Below are positions 42,137-63,818 of a stretch of DNA of 64,000 nucleotides, one piece after another. This DNA is from Escherichia phage W22. Location: sequence record PV159336. One strand, given 5' to 3'. Numbering within the stretch: the stretch's first letter is position 1; each line of letters opens with the position of its first letter. The notes beneath the pieces are model-generated. The model was not told where the DNA came from. It did no database searches and saw only the letters and a list, made by a program, of their open reading frames with translations. The position numbers were made by a program, and so were the translations under genes.

Positions 42137-42646
42137 TTAGCGATAGAATTGATGTTCTTTGTAGCGGTACACCAGAACCATATCTTTTTCCCAGTGTGCT
42201 CTTATTGTAGATTTTTTAAAGTATAATGCTCCTTTTGTAATATCTAATGCAATTCGTAATTCTGGAAAATGGTTATCGAGATAAAGTAGACGTTCTGCTA
42301 TAGCTTTAGCGTCTTTCCACTTATCGTGTTCCATAACGTTGAATGTCTTCGTGTAAGAGAATTGTCCTTTCTGAAACAAAACTTCTTTTATAGTATCAGG
42401 GAAATATGAATCTCTAGCCCTATTCAATACTACATTACCAACAGCAGACATACCGCGCTTTCCTTGATTACGACTTTCTGCATAGATTGCACAAGCTAAT
42501 AGATTTTCTTTACTATCACGCTTTGTACACTTGTGAACTACTTTAGCAGTTTTTACGTTTGCAGCTTCGGCTTGCGCCACAACAGGTGTAAATGTAAAAG
42601 CAGTTAAGGATAGTAACGCAATTGCGACAAAGGTTTTTATTGACAA
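42137..42646 (-). CDS. secreted cell wall hydrolase (SleB/Hydrolase_2-like), candidate endolysin
   Basis: N-terminal signal peptide (FVAIALLSLTAFTFTPVVAQA) and motif AIYAESRNQ...AVGNVVLNR typical of SleB-like hydrolases. Confidence 0.55.
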   Translation of the reverse strand: MSIKTFVAIALLSLTAFTFTPVVAQAEAANVKTAKVVHKCTKRDSKENLLACAIYAESRNQGKRGMSAVGNVVLNRARDSYFPDTIKEVLFQKGQFSYTKTFNVMEHDKWKDAKAIAERLLYLDNHFPELRIALDITKGALYFKKSTIRAHWEKDMVLVYRYKEHQFYR

Positions 42647-42738: not shown

Positions 42739-43341
42739 TTAGATATTGTAAACCTTTGTATGAGTTACTACACCATCTTCTACAAAATCAATACGTTCTT
42801 GATCCGTGACTAGTGCAGACAACACTTTAAATTTAATTTTTACACGTTCAAAAGCTGGTTGACCATCTTTAAGATAATTATGTTCGGTTGTCACTGTCTT
42901 GTTTACAAAATCAACTTTCGCTTTACCGTTTTCGCGTAGGTGGAATGTTTTTCCTGCTTTGTACACAATTTCAACATTACCTTCGAGAGTAATTCCTTCA
43001 AAAAGTTCACCCTCTTCTTCATTTTCTTCACTTTTGAACAGACGACGAAACTCTTCCATATCAAGATAAACAACATCTTCAGAAGAACTATCAGTAAGAT
43101 ATGTCTTACCCTCCATCAACCCGAAATATTGCCAGATTGCCGAATAAACATCACTAGATGATCCAAGGGTTTCTCTGAGTTTAGTTCCACGGATTACTTC
43201 ATAAACTTCAAAATTGAAACCAGACTGCAAAGCATCAAACAGCACATCACTAACTTCTAAAGCATAATCTTCATCGCTGTCAATATCTACAAGAAAATTG
43301 CCGCTACGAATAAGTTTTTGACCTTCTAAAGTAATACCCAT
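42739..43341 (-). CDS. hypothetical acidic protein
   Basis: 200-aa ORF between terminator hairpins. Confidence 0.4.
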   Translation of the reverse strand: MGITLEGQKLIRSGNFLVDIDSDEDYALEVSDVLFDALQSGFNFEVYEVIRGTKLRETLGSSSDVYSAIWQYFGLMEGKTYLTDSSSEDVVYLDMEEFRRLFKSEENEEEGELFEGITLEGNVEIVYKAGKTFHLRENGKAKVDFVNKTVTTEHNYLKDGQPAFERVKIKFKVLSALVTDQERIDFVEDGVVTHTKVYNI

Positions 43342-43366: not shown

Positions 43367-43390
43367 ATGCGCCCCGAAGGGCGCTATGAT
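43367..43390 (-). terminator. rho-independent terminator after TerD-like gene
   Basis: GCGCCC-CGAA-GGGCGC hairpin followed by T-rich tract on - strand. Confidence 0.45.
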
Positions 43391-43405
43391 TTATTACTTG
43401 ACGTC

Positions 43406-44002
43406 TTACTCGAACCAATCGTCGCCAGCGCCAAACGCTTTAACTACATCGTAAATGTCAAGCCCAGCTTTACCTACACCATATGCTTTCAGTTTCCATT
43501 CGCTATCTTCTCGCACCAGGGAGGCAACGTGGCAAATGGTGTTACCTGCAAGTTCTGGAGCCAAGAAGTCAAAGTCCAGCAGTTCAACATTACGTTCATC
43601 ATCGAAGATTTTAAGGAAACCTTCGGTAGCGTGACCAAGGCGTTTCTTACCCGTTTCGTCATCAATAGTAATTACGAATGCAATTTCCTGTGCTTCAGCA
43701 GAGATATTATCCAGTGTAACATCAATCTGCTCCATCTGTCCTACACCATCACGAACATCTTCACCTGCAAAAGTAGAACGTTCAGGATCAAATTTCTGCG
43801 CGTAGCACACCAGGTGACGAGGAGACAACAGTTCCGGCAGACCAGATGCATTGTGTCGGCAAATCAGAGCACTAACATCCAGATCCAGTTTTTCGTTAGA
43901 TTTCCAAGAGAATTCCAGACGAATGCGTTTCAGTGCTGGTGCGATCTTTTTCAGAGAAACTTTTTCGCTAGAACCTTTTTTCAGGGAAATTTTCTGAGTC
44001 AT
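43406..44002 (-). CDS. terD: TerD-domain protein (tellurite-resistance TerD/TerZ/TerE family)
   Basis: 198 aa; MTQKISLKKGSSEKVSLKK..., LDLDVSALI, IAFVITIDDE, EWKLKAYGVGKAGL track the TerD domain along its whole length (compared with E. coli TerD from memory). Confidence 0.85.
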   Translation of the reverse strand: MTQKISLKKGSSEKVSLKKIAPALKRIRLEFSWKSNEKLDLDVSALICRHNASGLPELLSPRHLVCYAQKFDPERSTFAGEDVRDGVGQMEQIDVTLDNISAEAQEIAFVITIDDETGKKRLGHATEGFLKIFDDERNVELLDFDFLAPELAGNTICHVASLVREDSEWKLKAYGVGKAGLDIYDVVKAFGAGDDWFE

Positions 44003-44074
44003 AATTTATTATCTCCTTTGTTGTTAATTTACGTTGTCTATTTTACTAATCTTTTCTACAAAGTCAAGCGTTTT

Positions 44075-44869
44075 TTACGCTTTTGCTCCGAATTTTTTAA
44101 CCCACTCACCAAACTCTTCGGATAACAGTTTATCGTAAAGTTCTTCATCAGACAAGGACAAATCTGCAATACCGATAAAATCAACATTATCGTACTCTTT
44201 TGCCAAGTCTTTCAGGAATTTAAAGTTTGCATTACCTACACCAACCATAAACCAGTAAACAGGCGTATTGCGGTGTTTGTTCAGTAAGCTACGTACTGCT
44301 GAAGTATCCATGTTTTCCCCGTCAGTTTGGAAGAAAATCATTGCAGGAGTACGATCAACTTGTGCATCAGTATCTACAACCTGTTCTACAACAGTACGTG
44401 TTACTTCTACAAGTTCTTTTTTACCAGTTAGTTTAGCAAGGAAACCCTTAGCCGGGACTTCTTCATACTCAACGACTTCACGTGTAATATTTTTCATAGG
44501 TACACTACCGAAGTATGTATCATAGATCTCTTGCATTACTGGAGCATAAGCAGTACCACCGTTGATGCAAACATTAGACATGCAAGAGCCGACATAATCA
44601 TCATACACATCAGCCGTTGCAGGAGGCAGTTCAAAAGAAGAACTATTGAAAGCCCACATGTCAATCTGTGCATTATCATCAAACTTCATACCAAACGGCA
44701 GCAGTTTACCTACAAAATCACTAACAGTGCCATCACGATACAGCTCACACATACTACCCGAAATATCTAAGGCGCTACCGACACGAAGAACAACATCGTT
44801 AATCTTTTTCTTACGCAGAGATACAGTAAGAGTTTCTTGACGTTTTTTAAGACTGATTTTATTGGACAT
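44075..44869 (-). CDS. von Willebrand factor A domain protein (TerY/TerF-C-like)
   Basis: MIDAS motif DISGSM, then GGTAY and FFQTDGENMD; N-terminus ISLKKRQETLTVSLRKK echoes TerD first strand. Confidence 0.65.
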   Translation of the reverse strand: MSNKISLKKRQETLTVSLRKKKINDVVLRVGSALDISGSMCELYRDGTVSDFVGKLLPFGMKFDDNAQIDMWAFNSSSFELPPATADVYDDYVGSCMSNVCINGGTAYAPVMQEIYDTYFGSVPMKNITREVVEYEEVPAKGFLAKLTGKKELVEVTRTVVEQVVDTDAQVDRTPAMIFFQTDGENMDTSAVRSLLNKHRNTPVYWFMVGVGNANFKFLKDLAKEYDNVDFIGIADLSLSDEELYDKLLSEEFGEWVKKFGAKA

Positions 44870-44870
44870 A

Positions 44871-45140
44871 TTATTTCTCCTTTCTGAGTGTAATGTTAGT
44901 AACTTCTAAATCCACTTCTACCACTTCTGTATCATATAAAATACAGTTAAGTTGACCTCTTTGTGAACCGTTCAGACACATTGCTTGGTTTGTATTAACT
45001 TTAATAAACACTAAGTTTCTGAACGTATCTAAACCAGAATCTTGATACGCAACATAATATACGAATGTATCACCTGCGTCAAGTTCTCCAAAACATTTAG
45101 GTTCATCTGATTTATCGTCTTTGATATTAAATTTAAGCAC
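44871..45140 (-). CDS. hypothetical protein
   Basis: 89-aa ORF coupled to vWA gene. Confidence 0.35.
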   Translation of the reverse strand: MLKFNIKDDKSDEPKCFGELDAGDTFVYYVAYQDSGLDTFRNLVFIKVNTNQAMCLNGSQRGQLNCILYDTEVVEVDLEVTNITLRKEK

Positions 45141-45696
45141 TGTCTTCTCCTTTACCTGCCATCCAGCCTAAATAGAAAGCCTCTCTGGTGATCTTTTGCA
45201 ACTCGTTTAAAGAGATAGTTACAACTAAATCATCTTCAATTTCTAGCTTTGAGTCTTCTTCTGTCTCAATGCAAGTATTATGCACTTTGTGGTAAGGATT
45301 GTCAACACGTTTAAATTTATTATTTTCAGTGCTGAAGAAGCAATCTGGATCTTCTTCTCCATCACCCCAACCCTGGTTAGGGTCTTCTTCAGATCTTTCT
45401 GTTGGGATCTCACCTGTAAAGTGCTCTTCTAATACCATAGCGATACCATCTCCAAGATCGGAAGAGAACATCAAATTACAAACTTCTTCCCAAGGCATAG
45501 ACCACTTAAATCTTTTACGATTGCCATGTTTATCTTCTTCGTTAGAGAAAACACTACCATAGCTATCATAATTGCCATACATCTCTTCAACAACTTTACC
45601 ACCTTTCAAAAGAAATAGGTAGCAAGGAGAACCATCGAAAGAGGTAGAAAGAGCAGCATTACCAGACTCTTTGCACAAGAAACTAAAACACCCCAT
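45133..45696 (-). CDS. hypothetical acidic protein
   Basis: 187-aa ORF, Cys-containing, very acidic. Confidence 0.35.
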   Translation of the reverse strand: MGCFSFLCKESGNAALSTSFDGSPCYLFLLKGGKVVEEMYGNYDSYGSVFSNEEDKHGNRKRFKWSMPWEEVCNLMFSSDLGDGIAMVLEEHFTGEIPTERSEEDPNQGWGDGEEDPDCFFSTENNKFKRVDNPYHKVHNTCIETEEDSKLEIEDDLVVTISLNELQKITREAFYLGWMAGKGEDSA

Positions 45697-45896
45697 TATA
45701 CACCAGCCTTAAGATCAATTAAAGCCAAAGTTGTTTCAGAATGTGTTTGCTCGTCTACAGGTGCAGTCATATGATAATACAAAAAGTCTTCGGCATCATA
45801 CCAATCTGACTCTTGACCTTGTTTCCAACCATCAATGAAAGCATCTTCCATAATGGTTTGTAATTCTTCACGAGTTAAGTGAATATCTTTATTCAT
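45696..45896 (-). CDS. hypothetical small protein
   Basis: 66-aa ORF, start/stop coupled to neighbours. Confidence 0.3.
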   Translation of the reverse strand: MNKDIHLTREELQTIMEDAFIDGWKQGQESDWYDAEDFLYYHMTAPVDEQTHSETTLALIDLKAGV

Positions 45897-46129
45897 TACA
45901 CATTCTCCTCTTTTACCAATTCCATCGTTGAACTATCAAAACCATCTTTAGAAGAATAGGTATAGACAGAACGTAGTTCTCGCAGGACAGTAAATACATT
46001 AGGATCATCTAACCAAGCATCCTGGAGGAGAACATAACGATCTTCATTGTCGTACTGGACAGCGATCATAGAACCAGACAGTTTGTAAATTTTAATATTC
46101 ATAATATATTGCTCCTTAAAGTAGACCAC
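45896..46129 (-). CDS. hypothetical small protein
   Basis: 77-aa ORF overlapping upstream gene end. Confidence 0.3.
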   Translation of the reverse strand: MVYFKEQYIMNIKIYKLSGSMIAVQYDNEDRYVLLQDAWLDDPNVFTVLRELRSVYTYSSKDGFDSSTMELVKEENV

Positions 46130-47219
46130 GTTTAACAGTTTGAATCATACCATCTTCAAGAGATTGCACTTCTTGAATATAATCAATACGAGCAGCACGG
46201 GCTTCAGTGTTGATTCGGTTAGTTTCTTCCAACATTTTAACTAAGTTTTCTTGATCGCGACGTAATGTTTCAATATCCAATACTTGACGATTAGCAAGTT
46301 GCGTAGCTTCAATTTGGTTTTGTGAAGCCAGATCACTACCCATTGCAATAGCAGCATTAAATTCATTCAGTACATTGTTCTGTGTATCGGCTGCTTTCTT
46401 CTGGCGTAGACTTTCAATATACATAGAAAAGTTTGCAGAGTAAGCAGGGATAACATTATTCACAATGTTACGTGCTGATCGCATCAAACTTGCAGATACT
46501 TTCTGCATACTTTGTACACGTGGCCCCATCTGAACACACAGTAAACGCAAGGCTTTCAGGTCTGCAATACGAATTTCAAGCAGATCCATAGTATCACGAG
46601 TACGTTGACGCTCTTCTACTTCATTTTCAGGTAGTGTATTAAGGCGAACTTCTTCTTTTTCATAAGTAGCTGTTAGAAGCTCTATATCCCTGTTTAAGCT
46701 AAGAGCATATTTTGCAATAGCCTCTTCTAAACGTTGCAGATATCGTAAAGAATCTTCTTCTTTTTTCAAGTCTGTTTGGAGTGTCTTTACCAAACCTTCA
46801 ATACGATTATTGATGGTGTCAAATTCACCAAACAAATCTTCTTTCATACCTAATACTTTCTTAACTAGTTTACCTAAGCCTTTAGATTGTTTAATAGAGT
46901 TAGGATCAAGTTGCTTTGCTTGCTTAATAAGTGCAGTTAAACGTTCACTCATTTCATCTCCCTGAGATGAACGCTGGTGTTTAAGCACTTCAGCATTAAG
47001 GTTACGAAGAGTAAGTCCTGCATCAGCACCAACTTGTTCAATCTCTTCACGAGACATTGGAGGCAGCATTTGTACAGGTCGTGCAACAGCAGGGGCATAT
47101 ACAGGGCTTGCATCCATAGCACTTGGAGCAAACAAAGACTTACTTTTTTCTGTTGTTGCCGTGAATACACTCATTTCAGACGGTTTGCTTTTTACGGCAC
47201 TGATAAAAGGACTGGACAT
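46116..47219 (-). CDS. TelA-like (toxic anion resistance) coiled-coil protein, tentative
   Basis: 367 aa, predominantly helical/coiled-coil; call rests largely on size, composition and neighbourhood with TerD/TerC/vWA. Confidence 0.4.
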   Translation of the reverse strand: MSSPFISAVKSKPSEMSVFTATTEKSKSLFAPSAMDASPVYAPAVARPVQMLPPMSREEIEQVGADAGLTLRNLNAEVLKHQRSSQGDEMSERLTALIKQAKQLDPNSIKQSKGLGKLVKKVLGMKEDLFGEFDTINNRIEGLVKTLQTDLKKEEDSLRYLQRLEEAIAKYALSLNRDIELLTATYEKEEVRLNTLPENEVEERQRTRDTMDLLEIRIADLKALRLLCVQMGPRVQSMQKVSASLMRSARNIVNNVIPAYSANFSMYIESLRQKKAADTQNNVLNEFNAAIAMGSDLASQNQIEATQLANRQVLDIETLRRDQENLVKMLEETNRINTEARAARIDYIQEVQSLEDGMIQTVKRGLL

Positions 47220-47287
47220 TCAATTTCCTCCATATTCTTTAGTAGATGGTGATACCTCTGTACCACCATCATAACACAAATTAAGTA

Positions 47288-48139
47288 TTAAACAAACATA
47301 TCTAAATAATTTGTAGTAATAAATGCTCCATCTGCTTCCAGATTAACATAACCAGTAGCATTAGTGGTTAAGAAATCCAGATCGAAGGATTCTTTAACAC
47401 CCCGTACCTCAACACGAGAGATATCGAATACAGGTAGTGTAACAGCCTCTTCGTGCAATACCGTACCTTTGTAGGTTGCCTTAATGATAAACTTGATATT
47501 ACCCGTTCCCGCATCATACAAAACACTTTCAAACCCTTTGAGAGTATACTTATCACCAGAAGTGAAGTGCAAAGTGGCTTTGTTTACAGTACGTTTTTTA
47601 CGAGGAGTTCCTTTCACACGTTTATGATCACTACGTTTTTTGTATTTAGGAGTGAATACAAACGATACACTCTCAAGAAAGGTATCAACATCAAGGATTT
47701 CAATATCCTCTGTTGCAGCAAATTTTGAAGTCGTTGCATCAAAATGCTTTCCCCTGCGATCATACATAAAGATATCAAACCGATCTTCTACATCAAACAA
47801 ATTATGTATCTTAATTTCAGAATGCTTGCACATTGCAGCAACCTTAAACTCTTCAAAACGTGGGTGTTCTACAAGCTCTTCAAGTTTTACACCAAAGACA
47901 GTATATTGTTTCGAAGTTTTTTCTGGCGTTGGCATTACAGAAGCATAATCACCGATTGCGCTTTTAAAGCAAAATTGTTCTTGACCTGTATTTTTACCAA
48001 CGAATTTACAGTATTCGTCATCGTGCATACTTTCTTTGGTAGTACCAACAAACTCAAAACCATCTTTATTCTTCTCAAGAATTTCTTGATTAAAGATCCA
48101 ACCTTCCAGGCGATACACTTTACCAACTTCTAGTTTCAT
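47288..48139 (-). CDS. hypothetical protein
   Basis: 283-aa ORF with Lys/Arg-rich linker (KYKKRSDHKRVKGTPRKKRTVNK). Confidence 0.4.
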   Translation of the reverse strand: MKLEVGKVYRLEGWIFNQEILEKNKDGFEFVGTTKESMHDDEYCKFVGKNTGQEQFCFKSAIGDYASVMPTPEKTSKQYTVFGVKLEELVEHPRFEEFKVAAMCKHSEIKIHNLFDVEDRFDIFMYDRRGKHFDATTSKFAATEDIEILDVDTFLESVSFVFTPKYKKRSDHKRVKGTPRKKRTVNKATLHFTSGDKYTLKGFESVLYDAGTGNIKFIIKATYKGTVLHEEAVTLPVFDISRVEVRGVKESFDLDFLTTNATGYVNLEADGAFITTNYLDMFV

Positions 48140-48174
48140 CTGTTTCTCCTTCTTATTTAATCTGTATTAAATTA

Positions 48175-48780
48175 TTAACGACGACGTGAGCTACTAAAAC
48201 TACGTTTCGACGAAGAATAACTTTTCGAAGACTTACTATAAGAGCTAATAGGGCTTGAGTAAGACTTACGAGCAGAGTAATTACTATTCACTTTTGTTGT
48301 TGATGGGCGTGAATACGTTTGTACACTTTGCTGCTTAATTGTGTTTTGTTTAGTGGTTGTATATGTATTCCCTTGTTTATCATAAAAACTATGCTTTTGT
48401 GTTGTATATGCTTTACTGTTAGTTGTAGGAGCAGCGTTGTTATTAATAATTGTTGTATTGCTACCGCCATCTCTATAACCACCACCGCCACTATTACCAC
48501 TCAACATATGACCAAGAAGCATACCTGTAGCAAACTCACCTACACCAGAAGAACCACTGCCGCCTCCTTGCACAACAACTGTTGAAGGTTGTGCAGGTGC
48601 TGCTTGAACAACTTGAGGTGCAGGTTGATTTACATATTGTTCATCTACCATCTGATTTGGTGTTTGTTGGTAACGTTGGTTTTGTACATTTTCAGAATCA
48701 TCACAACCTACCAGCAATGCACTGCCTAAAACAACTGCAACAATAAAAGATTTAATGTTTTTCATTTGTAACCCTCTCAT
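48175..48780 (-). CDS. putative lipoprotein with low-complexity Q/P- and S-rich regions
   Basis: Signal peptide plus lipobox-like LLVGC; Gly-rich centre; S/K-rich C-terminus ending RRR. Confidence 0.45.
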   Translation of the reverse strand: MRGLQMKNIKSFIVAVVLGSALLVGCDDSENVQNQRYQQTPNQMVDEQYVNQPAPQVVQAAPAQPSTVVVQGGGSGSSGVGEFATGMLLGHMLSGNSGGGGYRDGGSNTTIINNNAAPTTNSKAYTTQKHSFYDKQGNTYTTTKQNTIKQQSVQTYSRPSTTKVNSNYSARKSYSSPISSYSKSSKSYSSSKRSFSSSRRR

Positions 48781-48958
48781 TTAAAGTCTCAACACAATTT
48801 TTAAAATCTCTAGAGAAACAATACATCTGTTCTCCGTTCCTGTTGATAGTAATTGTATGGTTATCAATATATGTTGTCAATATAAAAATCAAACAAAATA
48901 GCCCTAAAGCAAAACAAATATTTTCAAACAGAATCCAAAGAACACGTAAAACCACCAT
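48752..48958 (-). CDS. small membrane protein
   Basis: 68 aa with one long hydrophobic segment (VLWILFENICFALGLFCLIFILTTYI). Confidence 0.3.
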   Translation of the reverse strand: MVVLRVLWILFENICFALGLFCLIFILTTYIDNHTITINRNGEQMYCFSRDFKNCVETLNERVTNEKH

Positions 48959-48972
48959 CAGATCACCTCAAC

Positions 48973-48993
48973 AAAGCCCCCGAAGGGGCTTAA
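48973..48993 (-). terminator. rho-independent terminator after TerC gene
   Basis: AAAGCCCC-CGAA-GGGGCTT hairpin; T-rich on - strand. Confidence 0.5.
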
Positions 48994-48997
48994 TGAA

Positions 48998-49975
48998 TTA
49001 AGCAACAGCCTGGTCTTCTTTTTCAGGGAAGATTAAACTTGCAATAACACCCAGCCCCAGAGTACCTAACACAATATACATACTGATCGTCGGATCAATG
49101 TGTGCTGGCAGGAAACTCACTTTTGCGTGCAGAGTTTCTGCAAACGGGTGATACATCAGTTTTACACCCACAAATACCAGGACTACGATAACTGCTTTCT
49201 CCAGATGAACCAAATATTTCAGTGCAACACTAAGGACAAAGAACAGAGCACGTAGACCTAAAATTGCACACAGCATTGAAGAAAATACAAGCAGAGGTTC
49301 TTGTGTCACTGCAATTACTGCTGGAACAGAGTCTACTGCAAAGATTACGTCAACCATTTCCATTACAAACACACAAACCAATGCAGGAGTTGCTACACGA
49401 ACACCATTTTTGATTGTGAAGAACTTCTCACCATCCATCTGATCAGATACAGGGAACAGCTTACGAACAATGCGAGTAGCCCAGTGTTTAGAGTAATCAA
49501 CTTCTGCGTCATTATCTCCAGCGAATACCATTTTAGCTGCACAGAAAAGGATGACCGCACCGAAGAAGATATTAACATACCAGCCCAAACTCAACAAGTA
49601 AGTACCTACTGCTACAAACACACCTCGGAAGACAATCGCACCTGCAATACCCCAAAGTAGAATCTTGTGTTGCAAGTGTGTACTTTTAATACCAAAACTT
49701 GCGAATACTGCCACAAATACTACTAAGTTATCTACAGAAAGAGATTTCTCCAACACATACCCACTCAAGAACAAGCTCGCAAAATCAGCACCGTGTTGGA
49801 AGTATACAAAACCATAGTAGGCTAATGATACCCCAATCCAGAAAATTGACCAGCCAATTGCAGATTTAAATGAAATTTCTTTGTTTTCCCTGTGTCCAAA
49901 GAAATCAATACAAATCGACAAGACTAAAATACCCACTAAAACAACCACATCAATAATTGGGAAACCCAGTTGCAT
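48998..49975 (-). CDS. terC: TerC-family integral membrane protein
   Basis: 325 aa, multiple TM helices; signature motifs LEKSLSVDN and second-repeat FAVDSVPA characteristic of TerC family. Confidence 0.8.
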   Translation of the reverse strand: MQLGFPIIDVVVLVGILVLSICIDFFGHRENKEISFKSAIGWSIFWIGVSLAYYGFVYFQHGADFASLFLSGYVLEKSLSVDNLVVFVAVFASFGIKSTHLQHKILLWGIAGAIVFRGVFVAVGTYLLSLGWYVNIFFGAVILFCAAKMVFAGDNDAEVDYSKHWATRIVRKLFPVSDQMDGEKFFTIKNGVRVATPALVCVFVMEMVDVIFAVDSVPAVIAVTQEPLLVFSSMLCAILGLRALFFVLSVALKYLVHLEKAVIVVLVFVGVKLMYHPFAETLHAKVSFLPAHIDPTISMYIVLGTLGLGVIASLIFPEKEDQAVA

Positions 49976-49992
49976 TCTTTTCTCCTCTTTAA

Positions 49993-50012
49993 TGCGGAGG
50001 ACAATCCTCCGC
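49993..50012 (-). other. GC-rich hairpin upstream of TerC start
   Basis: GCGGAGGA-CAAT-CCTCCGC stem-loop between 50053 gene and TerC RBS; no T-tract. Confidence 0.3.
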
Positions 50013-50052
50013 TCTATGTCGTATACTATAAACTGTTTTTAAAGAAAGTCAA

Positions 50053-50301
50053 CTAGTTCAGTTCTGTAATTTTAAGTTTATCTTCTTTGTTAATGATAGG
50101 GAAAGCTACAGCATCACCTACATCATCAATAAAGCAAACAGCAAGACCACCTTCCACTTTGCTAACCTGGCCATTAAAGGCGTGATACGGGGCAGGAACA
50201 ATATCTCCATCTTCAAGGAGAATAGCCTCATAAACCTTACCAACAGTACAATCACGAGTGTTTATAAATTTTTCAAGCACTTCAACATTTACTTTACGCA
50301 T
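50053..50301 (-). CDS. hypothetical small protein
   Basis: 82-aa ORF. Confidence 0.35.
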   Translation of the reverse strand: MRKVNVEVLEKFINTRDCTVGKVYEAILLEDGDIVPAPYHAFNGQVSKVEGGLAVCFIDDVGDAVAFPIINKEDKLKITELN

Positions 50302-50315
50302 ATAAAAATCCTCTC

Positions 50316-50522
50316 TTATTTGTTAGATTGAAAGATACCACGAAGTACCGCAAGAATGAACGTCACACAGACTACACTCCAAAACGTTACAGGAACATGA
50401 TGCCAGTCTAAACCGATAATGTCAATCATATAGTTGTATGCTAAAAGCAGTAGCCAACTAGGGATTAACACAATCAAGAATACAACAATAAAACAACCTA
50501 ATACTGCTAAAACACCTGCCAT
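50316..50522 (-). CDS. small membrane protein
   Basis: 68 aa, two hydrophobic helices. Confidence 0.35.
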   Translation of the reverse strand: MAGVLAVLGCFIVVFLIVLIPSWLLLLAYNYMIDIIGLDWHHVPVTFWSVVCVTFILAVLRGIFQSNK

Positions 50523-50531
50523 ACTTTCTCC

Positions 50532-51248
50532 TTATTTCAGTTTGTAAACAATTACATTTAAACCTTTGTTTACTAGAGTTTCTTCGATCATAAGTTTTAC
50601 AATATTCCAAGAACCTCCAGCCAAACCACAACCAAGCATTGGTAAACCTACAATTTTACCGCCTGAAGATACAACATCGTCTCCCATACTATCTAACGCA
50701 TTGTAGATAGCTTCATAATTCAGGTCACGCTTACCTTCCTCACGACGACTATAACCATATTGTCCATATAAATTATAAATTGTCAAATTGTTTTCTGTAT
50801 ACTTAGTAAACGTACCTAATTTTTTATAATCACCACGTTTAGTGGCACAATCTGCTTTAAACGCACCAGGCCACTTGCTTTTAATTTTTGGTGCAATACC
50901 ACTACCCATAGTGCAAAAACAGTTACAGCAGTGTGCTATAGCGTCTATATCGCCTCTCTCGGCTGCTGCTAAAAGATCACCGTATACCTCAATGATACCT
51001 GCTGGATAACTTGTTACAATTTCATCTTCCCAGTACATTTGCTCTACACCACCGATCAGTGCAAAGTTTTGTGTAATGCGATCATCAATATAATTAAGAC
51101 CTGAAACATACACAGCATATTCATCCTGTGCTGTAATGCCTTGTACACGAATTCTTAAGACACCATCTTTATCTGTTGCTACACGCCCAAAATCTTTTTC
51201 TGTAATATTGGTGATAGGATCTCCGAAAGTCGTCACTTTATTAGACAT
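50532..51248 (-). CDS. macro domain protein (ADP-ribose binding/processing)
   Basis: DAIAHCCNCFCTMGSGIAPKI and VGLPMLGCGLAGGSW resemble macro-domain blocks; start taken at internal ATG 51248 overlapping PRTase stop. Confidence 0.5.
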   Translation of the reverse strand: MSNKVTTFGDPITNITEKDFGRVATDKDGVLRIRVQGITAQDEYAVYVSGLNYIDDRITQNFALIGGVEQMYWEDEIVTSYPAGIIEVYGDLLAAAERGDIDAIAHCCNCFCTMGSGIAPKIKSKWPGAFKADCATKRGDYKKLGTFTKYTENNLTIYNLYGQYGYSRREEGKRDLNYEAIYNALDSMGDDVVSSGGKIVGLPMLGCGLAGGSWNIVKLMIEETLVNKGLNVIVYKLK

Positions 51249-52098
51249 AATAATCCCCTTTAACATTAGATTTGTTGATAATGTTGCTTTCAAAAAATTG
51301 ACGCAGGAAATCAAAGTTCTCTTTGTATTTTTCAATATTATTGTAACCTTCTGCAAGGCAACCAAAGAACAGTTGTTCTACATAATACAAAGGAAGTTGT
51401 GAAAGTGCAATTTTAAAATCAACTTCGCTTTGACTCATTAGATACTTAATAGGACGAACCAAACATTTAGCATCAGTTTCTTGCTTAATCATTTTAATAA
51501 AAGCTGCCAGGTTATTGATATAGTTGAAGTTAAGTGCAGCTTCGGTGTTGGCTTCTGTACCTTCATACTTTGCAAAGTACAGGAAAAACGTATCGTTTTC
51601 AACACCTTCTTTGTCTAAAATTTCAATAAGTTTTTCTTCGTGTGTTCCTGTAATATTAACATCATCAATGAAAATCAGAGTTTTATTACCCCAGAAATCA
51701 CGATTGATAGAGAAAGTGTCACCATCGATCAAAGCCTTACGATCTTCTTTGCTAAGAAATCCATAATCATTGATATAACTCACTTTACGATGAACGATAT
51801 CCCACTCTACTGCTTTACCTCCTTTGATAGAGATTAGGTAGTTGAGGTGATCTACAAAATGTTCAGATAACACTGTAGCTGCATTTTTCACATAGTTATA
51901 TGGAGATGGAATAACAACAAAACTTTCATTTACTAGTCGTTCTTCATATTTAGAAAAGAAACTTTCAGCCAGAATGCGTCCCATTCTTTTTGCTGCCTGG
52001 TTACTACCAAACTTTAGTTTGGAATAATCTGCAATGTTAAATTTTGCTTCCTTCAGGTTAGTAAAAGTATTAGCAAAATGTTGAATTTGATTACGCAT
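51241..52098 (-). CDS. phosphoribosyltransferase (type I PRTase fold) domain protein
   Basis: PRPP-binding motif TLIFIDDVNITGTHEE (hydrophobic-DD-hydrophobic-x-TG); 285 aa with uncharacterised C-terminal half. Confidence 0.55.
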   Translation of the reverse strand: MRNQIQHFANTFTNLKEAKFNIADYSKLKFGSNQAAKRMGRILAESFFSKYEERLVNESFVVIPSPYNYVKNAATVLSEHFVDHLNYLISIKGGKAVEWDIVHRKVSYINDYGFLSKEDRKALIDGDTFSINRDFWGNKTLIFIDDVNITGTHEEKLIEILDKEGVENDTFFLYFAKYEGTEANTEAALNFNYINNLAAFIKMIKQETDAKCLVRPIKYLMSQSEVDFKIALSQLPLYYVEQLFFGCLAEGYNNIEKYKENFDFLRQFFESNIINKSNVKGDYYV

Positions 52099-52747
52099 TA
52101 ATAAGTTCCTCTTTTTTAAGTTTAGCCAACAAGTCTTCTGGATTAATAATATGACAGAACTTCATCCCTATGTCAACAGCTTTTCCATCATAAATCAAAC
52201 TATCTCCAACGTGTAAAATCTCCTCTGGTGCGAGATCAAACGTTACCATTTCATCAAAAGAGAGTTTAAAAAACCTAGGATCTGGTTTACACAAGCAAAA
52301 CTCATCAGAAAAATGCATAAAGTCAAATGGTAATTTTGTTAAGCCAGAATATACAGCTAAGAAACTACCTGGTACAAAATTAGTATTGCTCTTAATACTC
52401 AAAGAATAGATTGAACTTAGCTCTTCCAACTTCTTGCAAAGCTCAGGGTTCAATATTGGAGGATGTTTTATAAACATTGCTAAACAGTCTCTTTTTAACC
52501 CATCTACTTTATCAAGATCAATGTTCAAACGAGTAGAAAGTGTTTCCCAAGCATTCCTAGACGTTCCACAAATGCCTTTTTCTGCTTTTAAATCCAGGAG
52601 AGTTTTTACCTCTTTATATACAGTAGCTGCTTCTGCCTCAGAACAAGAGGCATACTCGGCAATAACCTTGTTGCGTTCTTCTGCATACAAAGGATTAGCA
52701 GTAATAAGAGTATTCCATACATCAAAAGAAATATGCTTAACAGTCAT
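52091..52747 (-). CDS. HAD-superfamily hydrolase
   Basis: Motif I HISFDVWNTLI (DxxxT(L), dehalogenase-like variant) and motif IV HVGDSLIYD; start set at ATG 52747 with GGAGGA RBS. Confidence 0.55.
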   Translation of the reverse strand: MTVKHISFDVWNTLITANPLYAEERNKVIAEYASCSEAEAATVYKEVKTLLDLKAEKGICGTSRNAWETLSTRLNIDLDKVDGLKRDCLAMFIKHPPILNPELCKKLEELSSIYSLSIKSNTNFVPGSFLAVYSGLTKLPFDFMHFSDEFCLCKPDPRFFKLSFDEMVTFDLAPEEILHVGDSLIYDGKAVDIGMKFCHIINPEDLLAKLKKEELINA

Positions 52748-52749
52748 TT

Positions 52750-52905
52750 TTAATCCTCCGTCCAAAAGAATATCATCTGCTTAATTTTATTGATCTCTTG
52801 ATGTAGTAACTTTCCAGCATGTGATTGATCTTTAATATTGATAGCAAGAATTTCAAGCTCCGTTAGTTTTTCTTGGATAGCTTTATATTCATCATCTGTA
52901 AGCAT
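52750..52905 (-). CDS. small hypothetical protein (51 aa), not in ORF track
   Basis: ATG at 52905 to TAA at 52750-52752; stop abuts HAD RBS; coiled-coil-like sequence. Confidence 0.25.
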   Translation of the reverse strand: MLTDDEYKAIQEKLTELEILAINIKDQSHAGKLLHQEINKIKQMIFFWTED

Positions 52906-52916
52906 TTTCTTCCCCT

Positions 52917-53120
52917 TTAGAATGGTAATCTTTGTATGTCACTTATCCCCACACCCAGAAGTCTAGCAATATCCTTATCTAAAAGCAACTCTTTTTGTTC
53001 TAAAATGTTAATCAAATCTCCTAATACTTCTTTAATGTCACGATCATTTTTAGCAACGTGACCACCTGCGGTATCAACTTTATCTTTAAAAACAAAATAA
53101 TGATCCATAATACCCTCCAT
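52917..53120 (-). CDS. hypothetical small protein
   Basis: 67-aa ORF preceded by terminator and RBS. Confidence 0.35.
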   Translation of the reverse strand: MEGIMDHYFVFKDKVDTAGGHVAKNDRDIKEVLGDLINILEQKELLLDKDIARLLGVGISDIQRLPF

Positions 53121-53126
53121 ATAAAT

Positions 53127-53150
53127 AAAGGAGGCTTTCGCCTCCTTTTA
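53127..53150 (-). terminator. rho-independent terminator after AAA ATPase gene
   Basis: AAAGGAGGC-TTTC-GCCTCCTTT hairpin then TTTATTTAT on - strand. Confidence 0.5.
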
Positions 53151-62736: not shown

Positions 62737-63102
62737 TTAAACGTTTTCTAAATCTTTTAAGGCATTACCCAACGTTAGAACAATAACATCGTTTGCTGCC
62801 TCTTCCCCATTGATATTGGTGAAATTTGGTGTGACAAAAGTAACCATATAAAACTCGTCCACCTGGAAGACAGCAATAACACCGTCCATCTTAACATCTT
62901 GACGAAAGGAAAAACCAATCATCTTCTCTTGCAAAGGCATATCCCCTTCCTTCATTACTGCCAGGGAGTTTTCAGGAATGTTATATTTATCTGCTCCGAT
63001 GTAGATGTACGTAATGTTATCTTTATCGTGATGATACAGGGTTGCTTTTTCCATATCTAAACCTGACAGATCAAATACGTTAATTTCTTGTGTAGTCTTC
63101 AT
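62737..63102 (-). CDS. hypothetical protein
   Basis: ORF track 62737..63177; ATG at 63102 with GGAGGA RBS preferred. Confidence 0.35.
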   Translation of the reverse strand: MKTTQEINVFDLSGLDMEKATLYHHDKDNITYIYIGADKYNIPENSLAVMKEGDMPLQEKMIGFSFRQDVKMDGVIAVFQVDEFYMVTFVTPNFTNINGEEAANDVIVLTLGNALKDLENV

Positions 63103-63466
63103 AAATATCCTCCCAAATCCAATAATCATCTGTGTAAGTAGGATGCCTTTTATCCCACTCTGTTCTAGCCCAAGCAACCGCTGCTACCAATACATCACCA
63201 TGACAAGGTTGAGGTGAGCAGAAGCAAACTAAGTCTTTCCCTTCTAATTCTAACAAATCCTCAAGAGTGATTTTACCACAACGAATTTGTTCCCACAACC
63301 ACTCTTTATATCTTTGTATAGTTGATCCTCGTGGTTCATCATCCTTTAACTTAAAAGGATTTGCAAACTTTGAGGCTTTTAACCCCATATGAGGCATAGC
63401 TCTGCCAATGTACACTGCACCTTCAGGTATTACTTTACCTAAATGGTAGAAATTTAATACTTTCAT
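63080..63466 (-). CDS. DUF4326-like protein
   Basis: Motif KDLVCFCSPQPCHGDVL resembles DUF4326 core (C.C.P..CHgdvL); ATG 63466 coupled to upstream stop. Confidence 0.4.
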   Translation of the reverse strand: MKVLNFYHLGKVIPEGAVYIGRAMPHMGLKASKFANPFKLKDDEPRGSTIQRYKEWLWEQIRCGKITLEDLLELEGKDLVCFCSPQPCHGDVLVAAVAWARTEWDKRHPTYTDDYWIWEDIYEDYTRN

Positions 63467-63467
63467 A

Positions 63468-63818
63468 TTAACCCAAACACATCTGTGCAATCAAGCCCTG
63501 TATAAATTTATTAGCTTCTTTACTGTCGTAATCAGTTTCTTCTGGATATCCATCTTCATCGTACACAACTGTACCTTCAATATACCCTGCCTCAATTAAG
63601 GCACGGATCATATCAAATTGCCAGCATGAGTTACCAAATGGACGTTTACCATTAAAACACTCTTCTTCTCTCCATAACGTAGAGAGTAGTTGTCGGAAAT
63701 ATTCCCGTACAGTGACAGTACCAAGATCTGAATCCTCAAACATAACATCCAGGGCATCAGGATTGCTTTTCTCTACATAAGGAATATATTTAACACCATT
63801 AATAGTTACATCAAGCAT
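63468..63818 (-). CDS. hypothetical protein
   Basis: 116-aa ORF with AAGGAG RBS. Confidence 0.4.
   Translation of the reverse strand: MLDVTINGVKYIPYVEKSNPDALDVMFEDSDLGTVTVREYFRQLLSTLWREEECFNGKRPFGNSCWQFDMIRALIEAGYIEGTVVYDEDGYPEETDYDSKEANKFIQGLIAQMCLG

What the first reader, a model, noticed from the sequence alone, without database searches (positions are those of the whole stretch)
43406..53120. Phage-borne Ter-like system: TerD, vWA, TelA-like, TerC plus a macro/PRTase/HAD module in one same-strand block
Seen in sequence: a contiguous run of co-oriented, tightly packed genes encodes a TerD-domain protein (43406..44002), a vWA protein with MIDAS motif (44075..44869), a TelA-like helical protein (46116..47219), a TerC membrane protein with E-x-SLS-x-DN signature (48998..49975) and translationally coupled macro / phosphoribosyltransferase / HAD genes (50532..52747). 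Established knowledge: bacterial ter loci (terZABCDEF, telA) confer tellurite resistance and phage/colicin resistance, and comparative genomics has linked TerD/TerC/TelA/vWA with PRTase and HAD enzymes predicted to make a nucleoside-like metabolite. Inference: finding this whole association inside a phage replication module suggests the phage uses it for Ca2+/membrane-stress management, superinfection exclusion or counter-defence. The mechanism is unknown and the macro domain is not, as far as I recall, a usual member.
Basis: partly seen in the sequence, partly recalled or inferred. Interest (0 to 1): 0.9.

Follow-up and report, generated by a model that had tools for sequence, protein, structure and literature searches.

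The report
Known phage-borne Ter stress cassette
A virulent E. coli phage of the phi92 group really does carry a full set of tellurite-resistance-type (Ter) genes plus a nucleoside-making enzyme pair, but this cassette is already annotated and described in phages, and its function is still untested.

Summary
All seven domain calls pass Pfam's curated cut-offs: TerD, TerF-like vWA, TelA, TerC, macro, PRTase_3 and HAD. HAD-PRTase-macro overlap by 8 nt each. The window is a Justusliebigvirus (phi92-like coliphage), 99% identical to published genomes that already carry these annotations. The block is conserved across Stephanstirmvirinae.

In my survey, the HAD sits immediately upstream of the PRTase_3 gene in all 43 loci. 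TerC and TerD lie within 10 kb, usually with vWA and TelA, in 8 unrelated phage lineages. So the core Ter set is a real, recurrent phage cassette, as Iyer et al. 2021 already reported.

The macro domain is not a core member: it is adjacent only in this subfamily. It belongs to the SCO6735/TARG1/DarG class and occurs alone in about 2,900 phage records. It is most likely a separate anti-DarT DNA de-ADP-ribosylase, like AdfM.

The block is at least four transcription units within a 34-kb same-strand region, not one operon. Function is inferred only: an early-expressed inner-membrane or cation-homeostasis device used for superinfection exclusion or envelope protection.

New minor details:
- The HAD has a non-canonical Asp-x-Trp motif I.
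- The TerD calcium motif is degenerate.
- The macro protein is a fusion with a rare N-terminal domain.

Novelty is low and interest is moderate.

The parts
53127..53148 (-). Terminator-like hairpin (AAAGGAGGC-GAAA-GCCTCCTTT) after the upstream AAA ATPase gene. It marks the upstream edge of the block.
52917..53120 (-). Small ORF u67 (67 aa), unknown function, conserved in Stephanstirmvirinae. First gene of the HAD-PRTase unit.
52750..52905 (-). Small ORF u51 (51 aa), unknown function. It ends 2 nt before the HAD start.
52091..52747 (-). HAD-fold enzyme (218 aa from the ATG at 52747, preceded by a GGAGGA Shine-Dalgarno). Motif I is non-canonical, SFDVWNTL: the nucleophile Asp is kept and Trp sits at D+2. 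Motifs II-IV are intact.
   Evidence: Pfam PF00702 9e-6. NCBIfam HAD-IA subfamilies. Alignments of 25 phage and 15 bacterial homologues. Nearest PDB entry 2om6 has the same FDVWNTL motif. It lies immediately upstream of PRTase_3 in 43/43 loci.
51241..52098 (-). PRTase_3 (ComF-like type I phosphoribosyltransferase, 285 aa) with an intact PRPP loop, LIFIDDVNITGTHE. The model shows a type I core plus a C-terminal helical domain. Acceptor substrate is unknown.
   Evidence: Pfam PF15610 1e-41. Invariant columns in alignment A1. AF2 model pLDDT 90. Foldseek hits to HGXPRT, ComF and PyrR at E 3e-6 to 1e-4, TM 0.3-0.45. The start overlaps the HAD stop by 8 nt.
50532..51248 (-). Fusion protein (238 aa). 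Residues 1-85 are a rare N-terminal domain. Residues 85-237 are an ALC1/TARG1/DarG-class macrodomain of the SCO6735 subtype, with Asn, Gln and Gly-x-Gly in the key positions. Candidate DNA de-ADP-ribosylase.
   Evidence: Pfam Macro 3e-7. NCBIfam DarG 5.5e-13. PADLOC DarG 1e-13. PDB: 5e3b/SCO6735 3e-15, TARG1 4e-10, DarG 1e-3. Key residues taken from PMC9411070. N-domain homology to the L012/L013 188-aa ORF and to P0159 and P0160.
50316..50522 (-). u68b, a 68-aa protein with two predicted transmembrane helices, conserved in the subfamily.
50053..50301 (-). u82, an 82-aa ORF of unknown function.
49994..50052 (-). Sigma70-like promoter (TTGACT-16-TATAGT, 50025-50052) followed by a GC-rich 5'UTR hairpin (49994-50012) ahead of TerC. 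The same architecture is kept, with different hairpin sequences, in four lineages.
   Evidence: The phAPEC8 record annotates a host-type promoter at the equivalent site.
48998..49975 (-). TerC/Alx-family integral membrane protein (325 aa) with both signature motifs.
   Evidence: Pfam 1e-38. TIGR03718 323 bits, above its cut-off. Motifs and transmembrane segments.
48975..48990 (-). Hairpin AGCCCC-TTCG-GGGGCT just after the TerC stop codon.
48752..48958 (-). u68a, a 68-aa single-pass membrane protein with a weak DUF6693 hit.
48175..48765 (-). Predicted lipoprotein. Features: lipobox LLVGC followed by Asp-Asp, a Gln-rich linker, a glycine-zipper segment, an RTTIINNN motif and a Ser/Lys/Arg-rich tail ending RRR. 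The family recurs near HAD-PRTase in other phage lineages.
47288..48139 (-). u283, a lineage-restricted ORFan (283 aa).
   Evidence: Only 2 clusters among 5.8 billion proteins. No Pfam hit. phrog_27504, unknown function.
46116..47219 (-). TelA-family protein (367 aa). It is all-helical with very long helices. The N-terminal 50 residues are modelled with low confidence (pLDDT < 50).
   Evidence: Pfam 4e-34. AF2 model pLDDT 65. No specific fold match.
44871..46102 (-). Four tightly packed small ORFs between TelA and vWA: u77 (45896-46102), u66 (45696-45896), u187 (45133-45696) and u89 (44871-45140). They are conserved across Stephanstirmvirinae only and their function is unknown.
44075..44869 (-). 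TerF-like vWA protein (264 aa) with an intact MIDAS (DISGS ... GGT ... TDG).
   Evidence: Pfam PF10138 1e-38. Motif check.
44040..44067 (-). Sigma70-like promoter TTGACT-16-TAAAAT upstream of TerD. An equivalent site is present in L013.
43406..44002 (-). Single TerD-domain protein (198 aa). The canonical Ca2+ motif GDNRTGEGDGDDE is replaced by GEDVRDG--VGQMEQ.
   Evidence: Pfam 5e-28. PDB 2kxt 9e-15. Alignment with other phage TerDs.
43369..43384 (-). GC-rich hairpin GCGCCC-TTCG-GGGCGC after TerD.
42739..43341 (-). gp200 (200 aa), unknown function. Possible extra member: a weak homologue sits between TerC and vWA in the unrelated Ter locus L017.
   Evidence: BLASTP 28% identity, E 2e-6. All-vs-all cluster.

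Best explanation
This is the Stephanstirmvirinae version of a recurrent, already described phage-borne Ter cassette.

Shown:
- The core has six families: TerC (inner-membrane TerC/Alx-type cation translocator), one TerD-domain protein, a TerF-like vWA protein with intact MIDAS, TelA, and an always-coupled HAD-PRTase_3 enzyme pair.
- The block is organised as at least four units: u67-u51-HAD-PRTase-macro-u68b-u82; TerC-u68a-lipoprotein-u283; TelA-u77-u66-u187-u89-vWA; and TerD(-gp200).
- TerC and TerD have their own host-type sigma70-like promoters.

Inferred mechanism:
- Early in infection, PRTase_3 uses PRPP to ribosylate an unknown base-like acceptor.
- The partner HAD (Asp-x-Trp motif I) processes the phosphorylated product into a nucleoside-like small molecule.
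- TerD, vWA and TelA act beneath the inner membrane together with TerC and small phage membrane proteins and a lipoprotein. Together they change the divalent-cation and envelope state of the infected cell.
- This would protect the infected cell from envelope-directed insults, mainly superinfecting phages and possibly colicins. It mirrors the Phi and colicin-resistance phenotypes of plasmid ter operons.

The adjacent macro protein is most likely a separate function: an orphan DarG/SCO6735-like glycohydrolase that strips DarT-type ADP-ribose from phage DNA, like AdfM.

Likelihoods:
- Identity as a Ter-type cassette: about 0.95.
- Macro as an independent de-ADP-ribosylase: about 0.55.
- The superinfection/envelope-protection mechanism: about 0.3.
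For: - Domain identities.
- The block is syntenic at 65-80% amino-acid identity in Phapecoctavirus and in a third lineage.
- HAD lies directly upstream of PRTase_3 in 28/28 phage-collection and metagenome loci and 15/15 genome-collection loci.
- In 8 unrelated phage loci with shuffled gene order, TerC is present in 8/8, TerD 8/8, vWA 7/8 and TelA 5/8 within 10 kb of the pair.
- TerD and TelA hits occur in only 143 and 244 of 50,697 phage records, so this clustering is not chance.
- The PRPP loop is invariant and the model is a type I PRTase fold.
- MIDAS and TerC motifs are intact.
- The promoter-plus-hairpin before TerC is conserved in four lineages.
- Macro: best matches are SCO6735, TARG1 and DarG, and the SCO6735 key residues are kept. 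A phage precedent exists in AdfM (PMC13309987). Macro occurs alone in 2,972 phage records, for example in CR9.
- The published reading of phage Ter systems is the same (PMC7824862).
Against: - No experiment bears on function in any phage. PMC9796965 states the role is unknown.
- TerB, TerA/Z/E paralogues and ATP-grasp partners are absent.
- The TerD Ca2+ motif is degenerate in this subfamily.
- The HAD lacks the general acid/base Asp expected of a phosphatase.
- The HAD-PRTase pair stands alone in rhizobial plasmids and several phages, so its product need not act through Ter proteins.
- Macro is translationally coupled to the PRTase here, which argues for some functional tie.
- Promoter-like sites overall are no more frequent than in shuffled sequence (46 vs 43.9).
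Confidence: 0.4

Rival explanations
1. Metal-handling device. The phage TerC acts as a Mn2+/divalent-metal exporter or metallochaperone. It would adjust cytosolic metal levels or metalate Sec-exported phage proteins, such as the signal-peptide SleB-like hydrolase or the lipoprotein. TerD, vWA and TelA would be metal-binding accessories. Exclusion of rivals would not be the purpose.
For: - TerC scores above the curated cut-off of the TerC/Alx metal-homeostasis subfamily.
- TerC proteins metalate exoenzymes during secretion in B. subtilis (PMC10550928), and terC contributes to zinc and tellurite resistance in Klebsiella (PMC12054061).
- vWA has an intact MIDAS.
- Exported proteins are encoded in or next to the block: the lipoprotein at 48175-48765 and the Hydrolase_2 protein with an N-terminal signal-peptide-like segment (judged by eye) at 42137-42646.
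Against: - The TerD Ca2+ motif is degenerate.
- No metalloenzyme client is identified.
- This does not explain the obligatory HAD-PRTase partner.
- There is no Mn riboswitch leader.
Confidence: 0.2
2. A three-enzyme counter-defence pathway. HAD, PRTase_3 and macro work together on NAD+/ADP-ribose-derived molecules, making, recycling or destroying them to defeat host NADase or ADP-ribosyltransferase immunity. The Ter genes would be unrelated neighbours.
For: - The three genes overlap by 8 nt each, and their adjacency is kept across the subfamily.
- Macro is of the DarG/TARG1 class.
- A second ADPr-linked domain, DUF4326, lies elsewhere in the window.
- The HAD-PRTase pair is autonomous in other genomes.
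Against: - Macro is adjacent to PRTase_3 in 0/20 other phage loci and 0/14 bacterial loci.
- In the sister lineage L012/L013, one or two other genes separate PRTase from macro.
- The same macro family is a standalone gene in thousands of phages.
- Outside this subfamily the pair instead travels with TerC and TerD.
Confidence: 0.12
3. Not a system at all. The block is an accretion of independent accessory genes that share a strand and a genome region only because that is where this phage family stores non-essential early genes.
For: - Every ORF kept in my non-overlapping ORF set between 29 and 64 kb is on the minus strand, apart from one spurious antisense ORF.
- At least four promoter- or hairpin-delimited units.
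- Several interspersed ORFs are lineage-restricted.
- The AAA ATPase and u283 come and go between genera.
Against: The same six families re-associate in different orders in 8 unrelated phage lineages and in Bacteroidetes MAGs. This is the classical signature of functional linkage and matches the bacterial Ter network described in the literature.
Confidence: 0.1
4. Literal tellurite or xenobiotic resistance given to the host during a carrier or pseudolysogenic state.
For: GenBank annotations say 'tellurite resistance'. Iyer et al. mention xenobiotic resistance as a secondary possibility.
Against: These are virulent myophages isolated on E. coli K-12. The set lacks TerB, TerA and TerE. PMC9796965 judges tellurium resistance unlikely for such partial sets.
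Confidence: 0.03

Closest known systems
Bacterial Ter stress-response network (terZABCDEF/terXYW of IncHI2 R478 and E. coli O157; B. subtilis yceCDEFGH; Anantharaman, Iyer and Aravind 2012, as summarised in PMC7824862)
   Same: TerD-domain protein, TerC membrane protein, TelA, TerF-type vWA, and a PRTase plus HAD pair predicted to make a nucleoside-like metabolite.
   Different: - Only one TerD, with a degenerate Ca2+ motif.
- No TerB, no TerA/Z/E array, and no ATP-grasp or kinase/PP2C modules.
- Split into several early phage transcription units.
- Interspersed with phage-specific small ORFs, two small membrane proteins and a lipoprotein.
- Encoded by a virulent phage.
Phage-borne Ter clusters already reported: Acinetobacter phage vB_AbaM_ME3 and Caulobacter jumbo phages (PMC7824862), PhiPsa374 (PMC9796965), phiKp34 (PMC8386662), phi92 gp172/173/178 (PMC4690881)
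   Same: The same families in a lytic phage genome, the same lack of a complete ter operon, and the same proposed role (superinfection exclusion). The window is itself a phi92-group phage.
   Different: The genome is about 146 kb, not jumbo-sized. It has a complete six-family core plus an adjacent macro fusion protein. I found no published description of them in the papers read.
AdfM (chimallivirus DarG2-like macrodomain anti-DarT factor, PMC13309987), SCO6735 (PMC9411070) and the DarG2 macrodomain
   Same: ALC1/TARG1-class macro fold by sequence. The Asn, Gln85-equivalent and Gly-x-Gly residues that SCO6735 needs are conserved. It is an orphan gene in a phage.
   Different: - Gln replaces the catalytic Lys of DarG/TARG1.
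- It has no DarT-binding C-terminal domain.
- It carries an 85-residue N-terminal domain of unknown function.
- It is translationally coupled to a PRTase.
- Its activity is untested.
TerC/Alx/MeeF family metal exporters (PMC10550928)
   Same: Scores above the curated TIGR03718 cut-off, and both signature motifs are present.
   Different: It is phage-encoded. A short leader with a simple hairpin replaces the riboswitch. Its metal specificity is unknown.

Membership tests
Ter stress-response system | TerD-domain protein | tested here: met
   PF02342 5e-28. PDB 2kxt 9e-15.
Ter stress-response system | TerC integral membrane protein with paired signature motifs | tested here: met
   PF03741 1e-38 and TIGR03718 above cut-off. 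Motifs confirmed.
Ter stress-response system | TelA/KlaA-family protein | tested here: met
   PF05816 4e-34, covering 13-330 of 332 profile positions.
Ter stress-response system | TerF/TerY-type vWA with MIDAS | tested here: met
   PF10138 1e-38. DISGS / GGT / TDG present.
Ter stress-response system | Linked PRTase plus HAD biosynthetic pair | tested here: met
   PF15610 1e-41 and PF00702. The two genes are adjacent in 43/43 loci.
Ter stress-response system | TerB and the TerZ/A/E paralogue array of the classical terZABCDEF operon | tested here: not met
   No TerB hit and only one TerD among all block ORFs. No Ter family appears among the 25 listed of 29 Pfam families matched by 28 flanking minus-strand ORFs.
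Ter stress-response system | Canonical TerD Ca2+-binding motif GDN(R/L)TG(E/A)GDGDDE (motif recalled from the Klebsiella TerD structure work) | tested here: not met
   The window has GEDVRDG--VGQMEQ, whereas other phage TerDs keep the motif.
Ter stress-response system | Tellurite, phage or colicin resistance phenotype | not testable with these tools
   Needs wet-lab assays.
DarG/AdfM-type DNA ADP-ribosyl glycohydrolase | ALC1/TARG1-class macro domain | tested here: met
   NCBIfam DarG 5.5e-13 (far below the 250-bit equivalog cut-off, because only the macro half matches). PADLOC DarG 1e-13. PDB: SCO6735, BT1257, TARG1 and DarG.
DarG/AdfM-type DNA ADP-ribosyl glycohydrolase | Catalytic residues: Lys80/84 of DarG/TARG1, or Gln85 + Asn27 + Gly128 of SCO6735 | tested here: met
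   SCO6735-type set present: AHCCNC (Asn), YGQYG (Gln), GCGLAGG (Gly). The Lys is absent (read against PMC9411070).
DarG/AdfM-type DNA ADP-ribosyl glycohydrolase | C-terminal DarT-binding domain of DarG2 | tested here: not met
   The match covers only DarG profile positions 4-147 of 338, and the protein ends with the macro domain.
DarG/AdfM-type DNA ADP-ribosyl glycohydrolase | Removal of thymidine-linked ADP-ribose; protection from DarTG2 | not testable with these tools
   Needs biochemical and plating assays.
Type I phosphoribosyltransferase | PRPP-binding loop (hydrophobic run, DD, then x-T-G-x-T) and type I fold | tested here: met
   LIFIDDVNITGTHE is invariant in 18 sequences. AF2 pLDDT 90 with Foldseek hits to HGXPRT, ComF and PyrR.
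HAD phosphatase | Motif I DxDx(T/V) with the general acid/base Asp at +2 | tested here: not met
   The motif is D-V-W-N-T. Trp (Tyr once) at +2 in the 25 phage and 14 bacterial homologues where motif I could be read.
HAD phosphatase | Motifs II (Ser/Thr), III (Lys) and IV (GDxxxD) | tested here: met
   SIKSNTN, CKPD and HVGDSLIYD are conserved.

The most novel reading that the evidence does not exclude
The always-coupled PRTase_3 and Asp-x-Trp HAD pair synthesises a non-canonical nucleoside-like messenger. TerD, vWA and TelA sense or use it to switch TerC and the inner membrane into a state closed to further DNA injection. A virulent coliphage would then carry a compact, genetically tractable version of the Ter 'phage inhibition' machinery, whose mechanism has been unknown since the 1990s. 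The neighbouring macro fusion would be a second, independent anti-DarT2 factor.
Probability: 0.15. Interest if true: 0.75.

Novelty: already known. Interest (0 to 1): 0.35.

Why it matters
The mechanism of Ter systems is still unknown in bacteria, and phages have repeatedly captured the same six-family core. A virulent E. coli K-12 phage from the BASEL collection (Bas62, JohannJBalmer) carries this cassette at 98% nucleotide identity. That gives an easy genetic system for asking what TerC, TerD, vWA and TelA do and what the HAD-PRTase pair makes.

Separately, the macro protein is a plausible untested anti-DarTG2 factor in a common coliphage group. This matters for predicting phage host range.

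As a genome-scan finding, however, it re-discovers annotated and published biology.

Tried and rejected
- **Rfam scan of 42-57 kb at E<=1.** No hit, so no Mn riboswitch ahead of TerC.
- **PADLOC.** No defence-system model hit any Ter protein; only DarG hit the macro.
- **PRTase, TelA and TerC against PDB sequences.** No informative match.
- **TelA structure.** The AF2 model was poor (pLDDT 65, pTM 0.41). Foldseek against PDB gave no hit at E<=1e-3, only generic long coiled-coil, BAR, chemoreceptor and AhlC matches. I draw no fold-based mechanism from it.
- **u283.** Only two clusters in 5.8 billion proteins, so it is a lineage ORFan and structure prediction was not worthwhile.
- **Nudix partner of HAD-PRTase.** Suggested by a Rhizobium phage annotation. 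A Nudix-box scan found one only sporadically. Rejected.
- **u283 and gp200 sharing a domain.** BLASTP E 0.15. Rejected.
- **MazG-like call for the C-terminal half of the L012/L013 188-aa ORF.** Judged by eye only; Pfam gave nothing. Left unverified.
- **Exhaustive search with the macro N-terminal domain.** Only 5 hits in 1.8 billion representatives, so it is a rare domain with no functional clue.
- **Anantharaman et al. 2012.** The paper could not be read. Its content is cited only through later papers.
- **Promoter scan.** Overall promoter-like density equals the shuffled expectation. I rely only on the sites that are intergenic and conserved in relatives.

Full report
**What is there**

All genes of the region are on the minus strand.

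| Gene | Coordinates | E-value |
|---|---|---|
| TerD | 43406-44002 | 5e-28 |
| vWA-TerF-like | 44075-44869 | 1e-38 |
| TelA | 46116-47219 | 4e-34 |
| TerC | 48998-49975 | 1e-38 |
| Macro | within 50532-51365 | 3e-7 |
| PRTase_3 (ComF-like) | 51241-52098 | 1e-41 |
| HAD | 52091-52765 | 9e-6 (26.6 vs 26.4 bits, only just) |

- TerC also passes the NCBIfam TerC/Alx subfamily cut-off, 323 vs 246 bits.
- The quoted motifs are present: MIDAS DISGS, and TerC EKSLSVDN and DVIFAVDSVPA.
- The true starts are ATG 52747 for HAD and ATG 51248 for macro. Both have Shine-Dalgarno sequences.
- HAD/PRTase and PRTase/macro each overlap by 8 nt.
- The other ORFs in the block have no Pfam family passing its cut-off and match only PHROGs of unknown function.
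- Among them are two small membrane proteins (u68a, u68b) and a lipoprotein with lipobox LLVGC followed by DD.

**Where it comes from**

- The 9.7-kb block is 99.3% identical to Enterobacteria phage ECGD1.
- It is 98-99% identical to dozens of Justusliebigvirus (phi92-like, Stephanstirmvirinae) genomes. One is BASEL phage Bas62, isolated on E. coli K-12.
- Many of these records already name the genes tellurite resistance, TerC, vWA, phosphoribosyltransferase, macrodomain and HAD.
- The flanks hold NrdD/NrdG, an intein-containing UvrD helicase, a DnaB/Toprim primase-helicase, PolA, a DNA methylase, glycosyltransferases and a SleB-type hydrolase. The 'replication module' context is therefore correct.
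- Co-orientation is not informative, because every gene from 29270 to 63818 is on the minus strand.

**Architecture**

Gene spacing, hairpins and promoter-like sites split the block into at least four units:

1. u67-u51-HAD-PRTase-macro-u68b-u82, with gaps of 14 nt or less. It lies downstream of a terminator-like hairpin at 53127-53148.
2. TerC, preceded by TTGACT-16-TATAGT (50025-50052) and a 5'UTR hairpin. A hairpin follows TerC, and then come u68a, the lipoprotein and u283.
3. TelA-u77-u66-u187-u89-vWA, with gaps from -8 to 13 nt.
4. TerD, preceded by TTGACT-16-TAAAAT (44040-44067). A GC-rich hairpin and gp200 (42739-43341) follow it.

Promoter-like sites are not enriched overall: 46 found against 43.9 expected. 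However, the promoter-plus-hairpin arrangement before TerC is kept in four diverged lineages, each with a different self-complementary hairpin sequence. The phAPEC8 record also annotates a host-type promoter at that site. This points to early, host-RNA-polymerase-driven expression, which is an inference.

**Is it one system? Comparative evidence**

- The whole order is syntenic in Phapecoctavirus phAPEC8, at 49-81% amino-acid identity for the named proteins, and in a third lineage, L012/L013.
- I collected 43 loci encoding PRTase_3 relatives. They comprise 9 from phage records and metagenome look-ups, 19 from IMG/VR and 15 from 100,044 species genomes.
- The HAD gene lies immediately upstream of PRTase_3 in all 43 loci.
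- Outside Stephanstirmvirinae, 8 of 20 phage loci carry Ter genes within 10 kb, in shuffled orders. TerC is present in 8/8, TerD 8/8, vWA-TerF 7/8 and TelA 5/8 (Pfam-annotated examples).
- Two Bacteroidetes MAGs have HAD-PRTase next to two or three TerD genes. One of them also has a weak TerC match (E 1e-12).
- TerD and TelA hits occur in only 143 and 244 of 50,697 phage records, so this re-association is not chance.
- Even where the genes are not adjacent, they share genomes in XaC1, Caulobacter phages and Brevundimonas phages.
- Conversely, the HAD-PRTase pair stands alone in rhizobial replicons such as pRL10 and in several phages. It is therefore an autonomous two-gene cassette that is frequently, but not always, coupled to Ter proteins.

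**The macro domain**

- Macro is adjacent to PRTase_3 only in Stephanstirmvirinae. It is adjacent in 0/20 other phage loci and 0/14 bacterial loci, and 6-9 kb away in three.
- In L012/L013, one or two other genes lie between PRTase and a short macro.
- The macro family itself occurs in 2,972 phage records, including T-even tk.4, rV5-like, FelixO1-like and PAK_P-like phages. It is usually a standalone gene of about 150 aa, as in Cronobacter phage CR9.
- Only 71 records match the full 238-aa form.
- Its C-terminal 150 residues match DarG (NCBIfam 5.5e-13, PADLOC 1e-13). In the PDB they match SCO6735 (3e-15), BT1257, TARG1 (4e-10) and DarG (1e-3).
- It keeps the residues SCO6735 needs: Asn27, Gln85 in place of the DarG/TARG1 lysine, and Gly126/128 (one search read against PMC9411070).
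- SCO6735 removes DarT-made thymidine ADP-ribose from DNA. A chimallivirus macrodomain, AdfM, was recently shown to protect phage from DarTG2 (PMC13309987).
- The most economical reading is an orphan anti-DarT2 de-ADP-ribosylase that is independent of Ter.
- The N-terminal 85 residues are a rare domain, with 5 hits in 1.8 billion representatives.
- In sister lineages this domain is fused to a different C-terminal half. The Justusliebigvirus protein therefore looks like a deletion-generated fusion.

**Enzyme details**

- PRTase_3 has an invariant PRPP loop.
- Its confident model (pLDDT 90) shows a type I PRTase core plus a C-terminal helical domain.
- It is only distantly similar to HGXPRT, ComF and PyrR, with TM scores of 0.3-0.45. 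The acceptor substrate cannot be inferred.
- The partner HAD has motif I S-F-D-V-W-N-T-L. The nucleophile Asp is present, but Trp (Tyr once) occupies the +2 position where phosphatases have the general acid/base Asp.
- This holds in the 25 phage and 14 bacterial homologues where motif I could be read. Motifs II-IV are intact.
- The nearest solved structure, 2om6, has the same FDVWNTL motif.
- The published 'HAD phosphatase makes a nucleoside' step is thus plausible but not secure.
- The Stephanstirmvirinae TerD has lost most of the canonical acidic Ca2+ motif that other phage TerDs keep.
- The TelA model was poor and gave no specific fold match.

**Literature**

- Phage Ter genes have been noted repeatedly.
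  - phi92 gp172/173/178 were called Ter proteins by RAST (PMC4690881).
  - PhiPsa374 carries them, with the role stated as unknown and tellurium resistance judged unlikely (PMC9796965).
  - phiKp34 carries them too (PMC8386662).
- Iyer, Anantharaman and Aravind 2021 described Ter systems with PRTase and HAD in jumbo phages and in 'certain other related smaller tailed phages'. They proposed a role against superinfecting phages (PMC7824862).
- TerC-family proteins are now linked to Mn export and to metalation of secreted enzymes (PMC10550928).
- I found no experimental test of any phage Ter gene.

**Verdict**

However, it is a re-discovery in a well-sequenced phage genus.

- Best-supported explanation: an early-expressed, inner-membrane/cation-directed Ter cassette used to protect the infected cell, with superinfection exclusion most likely (about 0.3). 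It has an obligatory HAD-PRTase_3 small-molecule pair.
- The neighbouring macro fusion is probably an independent anti-DarT factor (about 0.55).
- Rivals are metal handling or metalation, a joint HAD-PRTase-macro counter-defence pathway, mere juxtaposition, and literal tellurite resistance.
- Novelty: already known. Interest is moderate, because the mechanism of Ter systems is still open and this phage offers a tractable handle.

Noticed in passing
window 63080-63490 (-): A 136-aa protein with a DUF4326 domain (1.7e-21). The Aravind lab predicts this rhodanese-phosphatase clade acts on phosphates of ADP-ribose derivatives (PMC9503650). It is a second ADPr-related gene in this phage besides the macro.
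   Followed up: partly
window 52091-52747 (-) and homologues in L003-L043: The PRTase_3-linked HAD family has an invariant Asp-x-Trp-x-Thr motif I instead of Asp-x-Asp. The archaeal structure 2om6 shares it. The chemistry may differ from that of a standard phosphatase.
   Followed up: yes
window 48175-48765 (-); L003 14108-14620; L013 6975-7538; L017 14020-14586; L004 8546-9043; L007 5748-6257: A conserved phage lipoprotein family. Its features are a Cys followed by an acidic residue or Asn, a Gln-rich linker, a glycine zipper, an RTTIINNN-like motif and a Ser/Lys/Arg tail ending RRR or KRR. It recurs near HAD-PRTase in three unrelated phage groups. The similarity is partly low-complexity.
   Followed up: partly
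window 50979-51248 (-); L012 9505-10071; L013 4024-4590; P0159; P0160: The 85-residue N-terminal domain of the macro protein is a rare mobile domain. In sister lineages it is fused to a different C-terminal half (MazG-like by eye, unverified). In P0160 it is fused to a segment resembling u283 (PRKK..V.K.T..LH[FY].[ST]G..YT[IL]K).
   Followed up: partly
window 42739-43341 (-); L017 4474-4965: The 200-aa protein just downstream of TerD has a weak homologue (28% identity, E 2e-6) sitting between TerC and vWA in an unrelated phage Ter cluster.
   Followed up: partly
window 49994-50052 (-) and the equivalent sites in L003, L028, L012, L013: The TerC leader keeps a TTGAC(T/A)-N16-TAnnnT promoter followed by a GC-rich hairpin and the ribosome-binding site in four lineages, each with a different self-complementary hairpin sequence. 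It may be an mRNA-stabilising or regulatory 5' stem-loop.
   Followed up: partly
window 43367-44125 (+): A 252-aa open reading frame lies antisense to TerD. It is a shadow ORF with no support and is almost certainly spurious.
   Followed up: no
window 44075-44869 and 43406-44002 (-): The vWA protein begins MSNKISLKK..VSLRKK, echoing the TerD N-terminus MTQKISLKK..VSLKK. This may be a remnant of the TerD-vWA (TerF) architecture. RAST called phi92 gp173 'TerD' for this reason.
   Followed up: no
window 45133-45896 (-): The C-terminus of u187 (LNELQKITREAFYLGWMAGKGE) and the N-terminus of u66 (LTREELQTIMEDAFIDGWKQGQE) share a short motif, suggesting a small duplicated module.
   Followed up: no
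phage records MG065639, MG065645, MG065656, MG065689: Four records labelled 'Campylobacter phage' (A150, A145, C3, A110a) are 98.4% identical to this coliphage block over its full length. They are probably mislabelled or contaminant genomes.
   Followed up: no
L007 10967-12562; L004 12941-14527: In XaC1-like jumbo phages the HAD-PRTase pair is followed by a protein of about 530 aa. In L007 it carries DUF2828/DUF7788 hits; the L004 protein is inferred by position and size. This may be another partner of the pair in place of TerD, TerC or TelA.
   Followed up: no
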